Shown here: in pieces, positions 54,001-57,000 of the stretch
Layout of the letters: each line of letters begins with the position of its first letter
How positions within the stretch are numbered: the first letter of the stretch is position 1
NCBI RefSeq assembly: GCF_056746865.1
Contig: NZ_JBWKMP010000005.1
From: a plasmid
DNA length: 64,000 nucleotides
Direction: 5' to 3' (one strand)
Made by a program: the position numbers

Positions 54001-57000
54001 GAAGTCCTTTTCGGCGCTTTTGCATTCGCTCCCGCCGCCGCTACCGATAGCTTTACCGTACAGACAAAGAACGGAAGCACATGGATCAGACGCATATACG
54101 GGGGCAGTGAGTGCGATAGCACTTGCGGCAACCATCGATAAAATGATGGATTTCATGGTGTTCCTCCATATTTCAGGCAAAAGAAAACCCGCACGAGGCG
54201 GGTTACTTGACAGGTTTAAAATATCAGCGGGTATCTGCCATGTGATAGACGTCGCTGCCTTCTCTTTTTCCCACAGAAATCACAAGCAAAACGACCTTCT
54301 CATCAATTACCTGATAAACGAGCCTGTAACCGGATGCGCGAAGCTTAATTTTGTAACGGTCAGTATGACCATGTAGCTTGGCTGCGGGGACGCGTGGATT
54401 TATCAGGCGTTCTGACAGTTTCTTTTTGAATTGCTCACGAACAGTGTGACCGAGTTTTTGCCATTCCTTCAGTGCTCTGTGGTCAAATGCCAGTTCATAA
54501 ATCATCCAGGTTAACCCTTACAATGTCTGGATTTTTCATTCTTTCATCAGCAATTGCGTTGAGTTCAGCGTCTTCAGCGAGTTCCCGGTAGTAGGCATAA
54601 AGTTCTGGTGGGACACAGTAGAACGCTGGTTCATTTCGGTTCAGGATTGCGACGGCATCCCCTTCTCCTTCGGCTACAGTTCCCATAGGATTTTTTTTCA
54701 GGTCAGTAATACTGGCTGCTGTCGTAGTCAGAATTTGGTAGCTCATAAGTCCTCCATTTGTATCATGGAGATTGTAGCACCTTAAAAAGACTTTTAAAGG
54801 TGCTTTTGATTGCGGGGAACGACAAAAATGATCCGGGGTTGGGAATCAACGCACGTGTGGCGTAATGATGACAATCCGGTTCTCACTTTGGCTATCAGCA
54901 TTAACTCCAGTAAAACCACTCACGATAAGGGGCTGGTCCGGTTTGAGTAAAATATTCTGCTTGACAGTCAGTTTCCGTATCGGGTCAGTGGTTGTGAGTA
55001 GCAGGTGGAAATTTCCACGCTCAATCTCCGGTGCTATCCGCATTGTGAAGCCAGCAGTCCGATCTTTTTCAGCCAGTGTAGTGTCACCGGATATTGCCTG
55101 ACGGGGGATCAGTTCCGTGGCAGGTTCCCAGCTTCCGGCAGATGTTGTTTGTGATTCAACGCACGGGGTACTCTGCATTATTTTGCGGATTGTTTCGGAG
55201 GATATCGCCTGACCGTCATCAAAGAATGCACTACGGAAAATCACGTTCTGATTTTTGGCAAACAAGCCTGGATGCCGCTCGCTCAGACTTTCGTATATAT
55301 TCATACCATTCAAACAAACAGGAGAACTGTCCGGCAGGTCTGTTCGCACGGTATCAATTTTCAACGTTATCTGGTGGTCATTTGAGGTTAACGGTGACTC
55401 AGGTACTGGTTGTGTTTTGCTATCCGCGCAGCCTGACAGTAATGCGGTGGCGGCAACCATCGATAAAATGATGGATTTCATGGTGTTCCTCCATATTTCA
55501 GACAAAAGAAAACCCGCACGAGGCGGGTATGAATGAGCCATTAAAGGCGGAATTGCACTCTTTGTTTAGTTTTGATATCTATCCTGTTGCATCATCAGAA
55601 CAGAATACTGGAGTTAAGTTGGTTATGGCGCGGTTTTATTTAAATGTACCTTTTGAAGAAAAGGAGTTAGCCAAACAAAAAGGGGCGCAATGGGATCAAG
55701 AACAACGGAAATGGTTTGTTCCACAGGGGAAAAATCCAATTTATTTTATTCAGTGGGTAAAAGAATTAAACGAACATGATTACAATATTTTTTCTCAACG
55801 TTTTTATATTGCGGAAAGTTACCAGTCATGTTGGCGCTGTAAGAAAATAACTCCTGTGTTTGGTGTTTTTTTGCCTCGTTGGTTTAGTTATAGAGATGTT
55901 GTTTGTGGGGTTAAACCTGCTGAATGGGAAGGTCGCATATTAGATAAATGGTATGAAACATCTTCTCCACGAGGTATGGTATATTTTGATTCAAAGAAAA
56001 ATATAATTTATCAGTGGTTAACCAATCCAAAAGCATGGGCTATTTTATCCAACGTAAGAAGGATATCATCTTCTGCGTTATCAATAATCAATAAGCATTC
56101 TAAGTTATATTATCCCGCCTATAGTAAAACAGCGAAAATGACCTACTACGCGAATCATTGTTGTCATTGTAAATCAATGCAGGGAGACTTTATGATGTTT
56201 GATGAGCCAGGTGGTGTGTTTTATCCAGTCACATCTGAACAGGCGAAGAAAATAAAACTCCATGAAGTAATAAATGAAACAATTTTTGCTAATGCAAACC
56301 ACAGGCAAGCCATAGAGTAATGCTTGGTAGTGGAGGTTTTATAAATCTTTACGCAAGATAAAACCCGCACGAGGTGGGTTTTTATTATGGCATAAGTTTA
56401 TTTATTGGAGCGTCCAAGCATTTGACTCATGATTTCTTTTCGTTTTAGATCATAGAGTGCTTCGTTGGCATTTTATGTATTCCTTAATCAAGGCGCCTTC
56501 TCATTTCACTAACTTTCTTTTTATATTCACTATCTTGTTTTTGCTGAAGTGCAGCACGAGCATTATCGCAGTTTTGATCGGTTATTGTACCTTTCTTGCA
56601 ATCTTCTAAAGTTTTAGTGGCTTCACTGATGTTGTTTGAGTAATATTCTACAGAATATATTTTTTCTTTACATCCCACTAACATTAAACTGGCGAAGATA
56701 ATTGATGAGGCGATAATTGCATTTCGTGACTTATTCATATCAGCTTAAATCTCTTCTCTTTTGGCGAACATATGTTTCATATTGAGCTTTCCGCTCATTC
56801 TCTAGTTGCCGTTCAGCAATATCATATTGCTTCAATTGTAGCTCCATTGTCAATTTTTCTGTATTCAATTGGTTAGATAAGTCAGCTTTTTTTTGCGGAG
56901 TATCTGCTGACGCGAACTCCTTCTGTAACGTGGTTAATCTCTTAGCCCTTTCCTGCATTTCATTGTTGAAATTTTCATAGAATTTGATCTTAGCCAGGAT

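What the first reader, a model, noticed from the sequence alone, without database searches (positions are those of the whole stretch)
54121..55530. relBE module and a lipoprotein gene bracketed by 85-bp direct repeats inside the type IV secretion region
About 85 bp (ggcaaccatcgataaaatgatggatttcatggtgttcctccatatttcag-caaaagaaaacccgcacgaggcgggt) occur at 54126-54210 and 55446-55530, differing at one base. Each includes a terminator-like hairpin, the RBS and the first codons (MKSIILSMVAA) of a secreted or lipoprotein gene. The repeats flank relE, relB and lipoprotein gene 54846-55481, suggesting the toxin-antitoxin module entered or was duplicated together with the 5' end of the adjacent gene, and could be lost or amplified by recombination. 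A third copy of the hairpin is at 56349-56372.
Basis: seen in the sequence. Interest (0 to 1): 0.5.

Follow-up and report, generated by a model that had tools for sequence, protein, structure and literature searches.

The report
Old repeat flanking lipoprotein gene and StbDE
Two near-identical 79-bp copies of a "terminator hairpin + ribosome site + first 11 codons" unit do flank a lipoprotein gene and a toxin-antitoxin pair on this IncI2 plasmid, but the repeat is old and exists without the toxin-antitoxin, which is a later nested insertion already studied as StbDE, so the finding is real but fairly ordinary.

Summary
The repeat is real: 79 nt at 54125-54203 and 55450-55528, with one mismatch. 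On the minus strand each copy holds an intrinsic-terminator hairpin with a U-tract, a GGAGG ribosome site and the codons MKSIILSMVAA.

The window is an IncI2 plasmid almost identical to pHNSHP45 in this segment. Among 517 related plasmids:
- 243 carry the toxin-antitoxin (TA), always at this one site.
- About 138 carry both repeats and the lipoprotein gene but no TA.
- 133 carry a single repeat copy that joins trbM directly to DUF5710. This is the product expected from recombination between the repeats.

A divergent relative (L012) with no TA also has both repeats and the same empty spacer. So the duplication predates the TA. The TA arrived later, adding a net 623 bp to the 19-bp spacer after the lipoprotein stop codon. 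Nine bases (CTGATATTT) are shared between the empty site and the end of the toxin gene.

The TA is StbDE, with proteins identical to those tested in pHNSHP45. There it was a genuine type II TA but dispensable for stability. The antitoxin is not RelB.

The repeat is better conserved than the flanking genes and evolves in concert. It is also the breakpoint at which neighbouring modules reassort.

Verdict: observation confirmed, interpretation partly supported, modest novelty.

The parts
54125..54203 (-). Repeat copy 1 (R1), upstream of and overlapping the trbM/kikA-like gene. It contains the hairpin at 54186-54204, the U-tract at 54177-54185, the SD GGAGG (complement of 54163-54167) and the start codon (complement of 54154-54156) plus 10 more codons.
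55450..55528 (-). Repeat copy 2 (R2), upstream of and overlapping the lipoprotein gene. It has the same parts as R1 and a single difference at 55502 (A instead of G). Position 55528 is the exact point where the alternative right-hand modules (DUF5710 or a second Eex gene) diverge.
53857..54156 (-). TrbM/KikA/MpfK-like secreted protein (99 aa, signal peptide ending VYA|S), followed by pilL/TcpQ-like (52619-53854) and pilM (52176-52613).
   Evidence: the orthologue in L012 has a Pfam TrbM hit
54224..54505 (-). stbE (RelE/StbE-family toxin, 93 aa).
   Evidence: TIGR02385 scores 42.5 bits against a cut-off of 27.9; PHROG RelE-like toxin, E = 3e-23; protein identical to pHNSHP45 StbE
54495..54746 (-). 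stbD antitoxin (83 aa, Phd/YefM/YafN-like N-terminus). It overlaps stbE by 11 nt and is not a RelB-family protein.
   Evidence: PMC11878559
54771..54803 (-). stbDE promoter-like site (TTTAAA-16-TACAAT with a TG extension) overlapping an imperfect palindrome, GCACCTTAAAAAGACTTTTAAAGGTGC, which is a likely operator.
   Evidence: homology to stbDE modules of unrelated plasmids ends near 54805
54228..54840 (-). Minimal inserted segment (613 nt) that carries stbDE and distinguishes form A from the empty site of form B and L012. The whole spacer 54204-54845 is 642 nt against 19 nt in the empty site.
54846..55481 (-). Orphan lipoprotein gene (211 aa, lipobox LLSG|C). This is the gene the repeats actually bracket in the ancestral arrangement.
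55529..56320 (+). DUF5710 gene, in the opposite orientation. It is itself bracketed by the R2 hairpin and the third hairpin copy. In other IncI2 plasmids a second EexN gene takes its place. The real start is possibly at 55625.
56348..56380 (.). Third hairpin copy (core 56361-56379). It has T-runs on both sides, so it is a bidirectional terminator between the convergent DUF5710 and EexN genes.

Best explanation
The 79-bp repeat is an old duplication of a 5' unit. The unit consists of an intrinsic-terminator hairpin with a U-tract, a Shine-Dalgarno site and the first 11 codons of a signal peptide. It heads two consecutive exported-protein genes of the IncI2 transfer region: an orphan lipoprotein gene and then a trbM/kikA-like gene. 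The ancestral order is eex - [R] lipoprotein - 19-nt spacer - [R] trbM. Three processes act on this arrangement. (1) The two copies are kept nearly identical by exchange between them (gene conversion or crossover), probably helped by selection on the terminator and the translation-start region. (2) With 79 bp of near-identity in direct orientation, the copies are substrates for homologous recombination. This removes the lipoprotein segment and leaves one hybrid copy joining trbM to the right-hand neighbour. The repeat edge is also where alternative right-hand modules are joined. (3) In one IncI2 clade, which includes pHNSHP45 and this window, a self-contained stbDE toxin-antitoxin module was inserted once into the short spacer between the lipoprotein stop codon and R1. 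The module brought its own promoter and operator. The insertion was probably illegitimate recombination using 9 nt (CTGATATTT) shared by the spacer and the end of stbE. The R1 hairpin now lies immediately downstream of stbE and would terminate its transcript. Shown here: the anatomy, the distribution of forms, the empty site, the older age of the repeat, and the identity with the characterised StbDE. Inferred: the recombination mechanisms, terminator function, direction of the single-copy events, and gene conversion.
For: The repeat and its parts are shown. Five architectures were seen directly: trbM|stbE-stbD|lipo (A), trbM|lipo (B), trbM alone next to DUF5710 (C), a trbM fusion plus lipo (D), and DUF5710 or a second Eex gene to the right. 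Counts among 517 IncI2 records: the trbM-R-stbE junction occurs in 243; stbDE at 95% identity or more occurs in 243, of which 241 are at 99% or more; the lipoprotein gene occurs in 381; the contiguous single-copy junction occurs in 133. The outgroup L012 has a lipoprotein 84% identical in protein, virB5 and virB6 only 72-78% identical in DNA, and no stbDE, DUF5710 or pil genes. It still has eex-lipo-trbM with both repeats (85 nt, 91%, spacing 702) and the spacer TGATTTCC|CTGATATTAAAATT|hairpin, against TGATTCCC|CTGATATTTAAATT|hairpin in form B. In the window the filled site reads TGATTCCC|613 nt|CTGATATTTTAAACCTGTCAAGTA|hairpin. Homology with stbDE modules in IncK2/Z and other plasmids covers only about 54220-54805. 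Concerted evolution: the window's copies differ at 1 of 79 positions, orthologous copies (window versus L012) differ at 2 and 5, and L012's own copies differ at 6. The repeat is 94-97% conserved between lineages, whereas the adjoining coding sequence is 84-90%. The derived base A at repeat position 53 sits in copy 2 of form A but in copy 1 of forms B and D. Single-copy plasmids occur with both DUF5710 alleles, which are 85.5% identical to each other, and each allele is also found next to lipoprotein-bearing forms. Divergence between pHNSHP45-type and window-type right-hand modules begins exactly at the last base of R2. Literature: StbDE of pHNSHP45 is a genuine type II TA found on about half of IncI2 plasmids (PMC11878559), and relE is confined to one IncI2 clade (PMC8868234).
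Against: No deletion, conversion or insertion event was observed directly; everything rests on comparison of static sequences. The single-copy haplotype (T35, G53) is also the inferred ancestral haplotype, so the SNPs do not prove a crossover within the repeat. Only one outgroup lineage was examined (L012 and L013). The right junction of the stbDE insertion is not clean: form A has 11 extra bases (CCTGTCAAGTA) and one extra T relative to the empty site, so more than one step or a longer donor flank is needed. No convincing promoter for the lipoprotein or trbM genes was found, so how transcription passes the hairpins is unknown. High conservation of the repeat could come from selection alone. 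The count of about 138 lipoprotein-only plasmids is obtained by subtraction.
Confidence: 0.75

Rival explanations
1. One reading: the TA module arrived together with a copy of the neighbouring gene's 5' end, or its insertion generated the duplication, so the repeats are the footprint of TA acquisition.
For: In the window the repeats do bracket the TA. Every IncI2 plasmid with the TA also appears to have both repeats and the lipoprotein gene.
Against: Both repeats are present without the TA in about 138 IncI2 plasmids and in the divergent L012 lineage, where the copies have already diverged to 91%. An intact empty site exists. The TA in IncI2 is nearly clonal (241 of 243 at 99% identity or more), whereas the lipoprotein gene and the repeats are more diverse.
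Confidence: 0.04
2. The single-copy form (trbM next to DUF5710) is the original IncI2 state. The lipoprotein segment, with or without stbDE, is gained by homologous integration at the repeat of a circular or co-resident donor segment carrying one repeat copy. On this view the polymorphism reflects gain rather than loss.
For: The single-copy haplotype equals the inferred ancestral repeat haplotype. The swapped position of the derived base A53 between forms A and B is what integration of a one-repeat circle could produce. The modules clearly reassort at the repeat.
Against: The outgroup L012 already has the lipoprotein gene between eex and trbM with both repeats. A 43%-identical homologue sits in front of the pil genes in IncI1-type plasmids. 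Both points suggest the gene is an old resident. Gain and loss by the same recombination are not mutually exclusive.
Confidence: 0.15
3. The near-identity of the two copies is maintained purely by purifying selection on a shared regulatory or translation-initiation element, for example a common regulator binding site, with no recombination between copies.
For: The repeat is more conserved between lineages (94-97%) than the flanking coding sequence (84-90%). It contains functional-looking elements: a terminator, an SD site and the signal-peptide N-region.
Against: Copies within a plasmid are closer to each other than to their orthologues (1 versus 2 and 5 differences). The same derived SNP is found in different copies in different forms. 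Identity extends through synonymous codon positions. Rfam finds no known RNA element, and the fold beyond the hairpin is no more stable than shuffled sequence (z = -0.02 and -1.0).
Confidence: 0.12
4. The repeats are sites of a dedicated site-specific system, such as integron attC-like cassette ends, sites for the plasmid's shufflon recombinase Rci, or transposon target duplications.
For: The layout looks cassette-like, with a hairpin at each module boundary.
Against: No integrase or transposase ORF lies in 52000-58500. Seventy-nine base pairs is far too long for a target duplication. The shufflon sfx core occurs as 8 perfect copies only at 30419-32620 and not in the repeat. Module orientation is mixed, since DUF5710 is reversed. 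The stbDE insertion lies outside the repeat, in the spacer.
Confidence: 0.02

Closest known systems
StbDE type II toxin-antitoxin of IncI2 plasmid pHNSHP45 (RelE/StbE toxin family; StbD antitoxin, COG2161, Phd/YefM-like)
   Same: The StbD and StbE proteins are identical. The window shows the same 11-nt gene overlap, the GGAGG site before stbD and the AAGGG site before stbE that the paper describes. The position between the lipoprotein gene and trbM is the same.
   Different: Nothing differs in the module itself. The window differs from pHNSHP45 only in the right-hand neighbour (DUF5710 instead of a second Eex gene) and at 4 of 1672 bases.
RecA-dependent deletion between short direct repeats, and TA modules that hinder loss of the DNA around them (as described for chromosomal super-integron cassettes; from my own knowledge, not checked here)
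   Same: There are two 79-bp direct repeats, natural single-copy derivatives with the exact expected junction, and a TA nested inside the deletable segment.
   Different: No deletion was observed experimentally. The published data show that StbDE is dispensable for vertical stability and gives only a weak competitive advantage. An anti-deletion role is untested.
Terminator-bounded accessory modules ('moron'-like insertions) in phage and plasmid operons (from my own knowledge)
   Same: Accessory genes sit between intrinsic terminators inside a long transfer-gene array. The same hairpin marks three successive module boundaries.
   Different: Here the boundary element also includes the ribosome site and the first 11 codons of the downstream gene, so two unrelated proteins share an identical N-terminus.
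The gene at the traD position of the IncI1 (R64-type) traABCD region
   Same: A homologue about 43% identical to the lipoprotein lies between traC and pilI in about 570 I-complex plasmids. The lipobox and the C-terminal motif ...GFTG...ITPHVR are conserved.
   Different: In IncI2 the gene lies inside the VirB-type T4SS array next to eex and trbM, not after traC. The equivalence with R64 traD rests on position and on my memory of the R64 map; the R64 sequence was not compared here.

Membership tests
RelE/StbE-family type II toxin | The toxin sequence matches the family profile above the curated cut-off. | tested here: met
   TIGR02385 RelE_StbE scores 42.5 bits against a cut-off of 27.9. PHROG RelE-like toxin, E = 3.4e-23.
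RelE/StbE-family type II toxin | A small antitoxin gene lies immediately upstream in the same operon, with its own promoter and a palindromic operator. | tested here: met
   The 83-aa ORF overlaps the toxin gene by 11 nt. PHROG antitoxin, E = 6e-19. A promoter-like site at 54798-54771 overlaps an 11/12 palindrome. Operator function itself was not tested.
RelE/StbE-family type II toxin | The toxin is toxic, the antitoxin neutralises it, and the two proteins bind each other. | not testable with these tools
   This was shown experimentally for the identical proteins of pHNSHP45 (PMC11878559; identity shown).
   NF008412 scores 17.3 bits against a cut-off of 96, with no stretch passing. The better partial matches are to the DnaT N-terminus and YafN, which are Phd/YefM-like. 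Neighbouring homologues are annotated as Phd/YefM or 'plasmid stabilization protein'.
Rho-independent (intrinsic) terminator | A G+C-rich stem-loop is followed directly by a U-tract on the transcribed strand. | tested here: met
   On the minus strand there are 6-7 bp stems with 5 G-C pairs and a 5-nt loop, followed by TTTTCTTTT, at 54204-54186 and 55528-55512. The hairpin appears in both the MFE and centroid folds. Termination in vivo was not tested.
Bacterial lipoprotein | An N-terminal signal peptide ends in a lipobox [LVI][ASTVI][GAS]C. | tested here: met
   The sequence reads MKSIILSMVAATALLSG|C. The LLSGC motif is conserved in homologues at 84%, 51% and 48% identity. No dedicated signal-peptide predictor was available.
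TrbM/KikA/MpfK conjugal transfer protein | The sequence matches the TrbM profile. | tested here: inconclusive
   NCBIfam PRK13893 gives E = 2e-6 but 27 bits against a cut-off of 259, because that model is for a 194-aa protein. The orthologue in L012 carries a precomputed Pfam PF07424 TrbM hit. RefSeq names it TrbM/KikA/MpfK.
Integron cassette / attC or Rci-sfx site-specific recombination site | A cognate recombinase is adjacent and the site consensus is present in the repeat. | tested here: not met
   No recombinase ORF lies in 52000-58500. The sfx cores are confined to 30419-32620 and are absent from the repeat.

The most novel reading that the evidence does not exclude
The 79-bp unit is not just a leftover duplication. 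It is a selected junction element: a terminator, a translation start and a signal-peptide start, conserved more strongly than the genes it joins. It provides portable homology that lets IncI2 and related plasmids swap, lose and regain accessory envelope genes (the lipoprotein, Eex variants, DUF5710) at the T4SS/pilus boundary. On this reading the stbDE module, nested between the two copies, acts as an anti-deletion lock: on a single-copy plasmid, a cell in which the repeats recombine loses the antitoxin gene and is arrested.
Probability: 0.2. Interest if true: 0.45.

Novelty: new member of a known kind. Interest (0 to 1): 0.25.

Why it matters
IncI2 plasmids are the main vehicles of the colistin-resistance gene mcr-1, and the window is nearly identical to the prototype pHNSHP45 in this segment. 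The analysis shows that stbDE was a single nested insertion into an older repeat-flanked unit, and it identifies the exact empty site. This explains why relE marks one IncI2 clade. It also gives clean typing markers: three junction sequences that separate the main architectures. It predicts a specific 1325-bp deletion product. Finally, it identifies a short conserved element at which envelope, exclusion and accessory genes of these plasmids reassort. The biological stakes are modest. The TA is already characterised and has weak effects, and the lipoprotein's function is unknown and apparently dispensable, since a quarter of these conjugative plasmids lack it.

Tried and rejected
(1) Function of the lipoprotein. 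Pfam gave only a non-significant DUF6491 hit (E = 0.7) and NCBIfam gave nothing. PHROGs gave only a weak signal-peptide-region hit. A PDB sequence search found nothing below E = 0.13. The AlphaFold2 model built from a 6-sequence alignment reached only pLDDT 59.8, and Foldseek against the PDB gave no match with TM above 0.21. Function therefore remains unknown.

(2) Rfam over 53500-57000 at E up to 1 gave no hits. Folding of the whole repeat is no more stable than shuffled sequence, so nothing beyond the terminator hairpin is supported.

(3) MAFFT misplaced the short empty-site sequence against the 800-nt filled site. I resolved the junctions by reading the sequences directly and with a script.

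(4) The first junction counts were inflated because the search tool joins pieces lying within about 640 nt of each other (210, 379). I repeated the single-copy count with a 179-nt query that cannot be satisfied by joined pieces, which gave 133.

(5) I first read the ATATCAG in the empty spacer as a scar left by deletion of stbDE, which would make form B derived from form A. I rejected this once the TA-free outgroup L012 showed the same spacer.

(6) I considered integron, Rci or transposon origins for the repeat and rejected them.

(7) The donor of the stbDE module was not identified. The nearest non-IncI2 relatives are only 83-90% identical, and their homology stops at about 54220 and 54805.

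(8) No search was made for tandem amplification of the segment. Two of the 381 records have two lipoprotein-gene matches, but I did not examine them.
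Full report
OBSERVATION. The repeat is real. The repeat finder returns two copies of 79 nt, at 54125-54203 and 55450-55528, that differ at one base (G54177 versus A55502) with a spacing of 1325 nt.

All genes here except DUF5710 are on the minus strand. Read on that strand, each copy is ACCCGC-CTCGT-GCGGGT followed by TTTTCTTTT. The consensus scan calls both terminator-like, and the hairpin appears in the MFE and centroid folds. Eleven bases further on come GGAGG, six more bases, and ATG AAA TCC ATC ATT TTA TCG ATG GTT GCC GC.

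Copy 1 heads a 99-aa TrbM/KikA-like secreted protein (53857-54156). Copy 2 heads a 211-aa lipoprotein (54846-55481, lipobox LLSG|C). The two proteins share only the 11 residues MKSIILSMVAA.

A third copy of the hairpin, with 33 nt of similarity, lies at 56348-56380. It has T-runs on both sides and sits between the convergent DUF5710 and EexN genes. The 19-nt hairpin motif occurs three times in the window against 0.01 expected by chance.

CONTEXT. The window is an IncI2 conjugative plasmid. The region 53600-56500 matches 542 plasmid records, nearly all typed IncI2/MOBP/MPF_T. Across 53857-55528 it differs from the mcr-1 prototype pHNSHP45 at 4 of 1672 positions. The neighbouring genes on the minus strand run virB6-like, virB5-like, EexN, then [DUF5710 on the plus strand], lipoprotein, antitoxin, toxin, trbM-like, pilL/TcpQ-like, pilM.

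THE TOXIN-ANTITOXIN. The toxin passes the curated RelE/StbE model (42.5 bits against 27.9). The antitoxin does not match RelB/DinJ (17 bits against 96). It resembles the Phd/YefM/YafN type instead, which also explains why pipelines call it 'DnaT'.

Both proteins are identical to StbD and StbE of pHNSHP45. The window also shows the 11-nt overlap, the GGAGG site before stbD and the AAGGG site before stbE that the published work describes. That work (PMC11878559) showed several things:
- StbE is toxic, StbD neutralises and binds it, and the genes are co-transcribed.
- About half of IncI2 plasmids carry the pair.
- Deleting it does not destabilise the plasmid.
- It gives only a weak advantage in plasmid-plasmid competition (17:1 after 80 generations).

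Another study found relE confined to one IncI2 clade (PMC8868234).

NATURAL VARIANTS. Representative records show five arrangements:
- Form A: trbM | stbE stbD | lipoprotein (the window, pHNSHP45).
- Form B: trbM | lipoprotein, with both repeats but no TA.
- Form C: trbM directly next to DUF5710, with a single repeat copy.
- Form D: like B, but with an extra, diverged 5' fragment of the lipoprotein gene fused in frame to trbM.
- To the right of copy 2, either DUF5710 or a second EexN gene.

Junction-specific searches give the following counts among 517 records that carry trbM plus the repeat. The trbM-R-stbE junction occurs in 243. stbDE at 95% identity or more occurs in 243, of which 241 are at 99% or more. 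The lipoprotein gene occurs in 381. The contiguous single-copy junction occurs in 133. By subtraction, about 138 plasmids have both repeats and the lipoprotein gene without the TA. The value 243/517 = 47% agrees with the published 'about one half'.

In form C the sequence runs from the trbM coding sequence through one repeat straight into ATGAATGAG of DUF5710. That is exactly the right flank of copy 2 in forms A and B, and it is what recombination between the two copies would leave.

POLARITY. A homologue of the lipoprotein at 84% protein identity lies on a 77-kb metagenomic contig, L012. Its virB5 and virB6 genes are only 72-78% identical in DNA to the window's, and it has no stbDE, no DUF5710 and no pil genes after trbM. 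It nevertheless has eex - lipoprotein - trbM with both repeat copies at the same positions (85 nt, 91% identical, spacing 702 as in form B).

Its spacer between the lipoprotein stop codon and the hairpin reads TGATTTCC|CTGATATTAAAATT. Form B reads TGATTCCC|CTGATATTTAAATT. So the two-repeat, TA-free arrangement is the older one.

In the window the same site reads TGATTCCC | 613 nt (54228-54840) | CTGATATTTTAAACCTGTCAAGTA | hairpin. This is a net gain of 623 nt in a 19-nt spacer. The nine bases CTGATATTT include the stbE stop codon. They are present in the empty site and also, as C-TGA-TATT, at the end of stbE in an unrelated IncK2/Z plasmid. I read this as microhomology used in an illegitimate insertion. 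An additional 11 nt next to the hairpin remain unexplained.

Homology with stbDE modules elsewhere covers only about 54220-54805. That stretch is the two genes plus a promoter-like site overlapping an 11/12 palindrome. Near-clonality of the module in IncI2, set against greater diversity of the lipoprotein gene and clade restriction, indicates one insertion event.

THE REPEAT AS AN EVOLVING ELEMENT. Over the 79 nt, the window's two copies differ at 1 position. Orthologous copies (window versus L012) differ at 2 (trbM copy) and 5 (lipoprotein copy). L012's own copies differ at 6. Copies within one plasmid are therefore closer than orthologues, which is the signature of concerted evolution.

The repeat is also better conserved between the two lineages (94-97%) than the adjoining coding sequence (lipoprotein 90%, trbM 84%). 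The derived base A at repeat position 53 is in copy 2 in form A but in copy 1 in forms B and D, which again points to exchange between copies.

The repeat edge is a module boundary. pHNSHP45-type and window-type plasmids are identical up to the last base of copy 2 and unrelated beyond it. Other hit classes start exactly at 54125. Single-copy plasmids occur with both DUF5710 alleles, which are 85.5% identical to each other, and each allele is also found beside lipoprotein-bearing forms. So either the loss happened at least twice or the modules reassort freely at the repeat.

HOW IT MOST LIKELY WORKS. Shown: two genes share a duplicated terminator, ribosome site and signal-peptide start; the duplication predates the TA; the TA is a self-contained insertion in the spacer; and natural plasmids exist with zero, one or two of the intervening genes, with junctions at the repeat.

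Inferred:
- The hairpins act as partial terminators within a long transfer-gene transcript. R1 now also ends the stbDE transcript.
- Homologous recombination between the 79-bp copies deletes, and possibly re-inserts, the intervening segment.
- Gene conversion keeps the copies alike.

No convincing promoter for the lipoprotein or trbM genes was found. In plasmids that carry a second Eex gene instead of DUF5710, all genes from virB6 to pilM point the same way, so read-through from upstream is plausible there.

THE LIPOPROTEIN. It belongs to a very small family: 4 clusters in 5.8 billion proteins and 18 representatives in 1.84 billion. No Pfam, NCBIfam or PDB relative was found, and the low-confidence model gave no fold match.

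A homologue about 43% identical sits between traC and pilI in about 570 I-complex plasmids. From my memory of the R64 map, that is the traD position of the traABCD region, which PMC10286972 mentions. A quarter of IncI2 plasmids typed as conjugative lack the gene, so it is unlikely to be essential for transfer.

RIVALS. 'Gain rather than loss' of the lipoprotein segment cannot be excluded for individual lineages. Selection alone as the cause of repeat identity is weakened by the paralogue-versus-orthologue pattern. Site-specific systems are rejected: no recombinase gene lies nearby, and the shufflon sfx sites are at 30.4-32.6 kb only.

VERDICT. The TA is already known and characterised. The 79-bp repeat and the hairpin-delimited module layout were not found described in the papers I could search. 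They are an ordinary kind of feature: a duplicated 5' region that mediates indels and module exchange. Interest is modest.

Noticed in passing
window 56412-56475: A 64-nt remnant lies between the third hairpin and the EexN gene. It is 84.6% identical (55 of 65 alignment columns) to part of the second EexN-family gene of pHeN867/pHNSHP45-type plasmids (alignment score 78 against a maximum of 28 for shuffles). This suggests the DUF5710 module replaced most of a former second exclusion gene.
   Followed up: partly
L005 (NZ_CP007134) 1758-2150; also L010 and L011: In form D plasmids, a diverged copy of the first 33 codons of the lipoprotein gene is fused in frame to codon 3 of trbM, giving a 130-aa ORF (MKSTILLMVAATAALRPGCADSRTHPVPETPLSK-IMLSMIAAS...). 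Its lipobox is degenerate. RefSeq annotates a shorter 95-aa trbM from an internal ATG. It appears to be a relic of an earlier unequal recombination at the same repeat.
   Followed up: partly
window 55529-56380: The DUF5710 gene, in reverse orientation, is itself bracketed by direct copies of the hairpin (a 33-nt family, 85% identical). It exists as two alleles only 85.5% identical to each other, and in many IncI2 plasmids a second EexN gene takes its place. The stretch between virB5 and trbM is a hot spot of module exchange.
   Followed up: partly
window 55529-55627; L003 2806-2840: The annotated DUF5710 start codon abuts the hairpin with no ribosome site, and it is ACG in plasmid pKGu016_3. 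An in-frame ATG at 55625, preceded by GGAG, coincides with the start of the profile matches (residues 33-83). The real start is probably there.
   Followed up: no
L006 (NZ_CP075699, IncK2/Z) 2505-3027: A stbDE module about 86% identical is inserted between pilP and the pilQ-like ATPase gene of an IncK2/Z plasmid, in the opposite orientation to the pil genes. stbDE modules have therefore landed inside pilus or transfer operons of I-complex plasmids more than once.
   Followed up: no
window 30419-32620: Eight perfect copies of the shufflon core GTGCCAATCCGGT occur in alternating orientation. This is the IncI2 pilV shufflon. A lone 11/13 match at 54868-54880 inside the lipoprotein gene is probably chance, since about 1 such match is expected per window.
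   Followed up: partly
L015 (NZ_CP060904, IncI1/B/O) 3526-4077; L014 4001-4585: Homologues of the IncI2 lipoprotein at 43-51% identity lie just upstream of pilI in I-complex plasmids, after traC or after a DUF7446 gene. This links the orphan family to the thin-pilus region across the I-complex.
   Followed up: partly
(plasmid collection): Two of the 381 records with the lipoprotein gene contain two matches. These could be plasmid dimers or cointegrates, or a tandem amplification of the repeat-flanked segment. I did not examine them.
   Followed up: no
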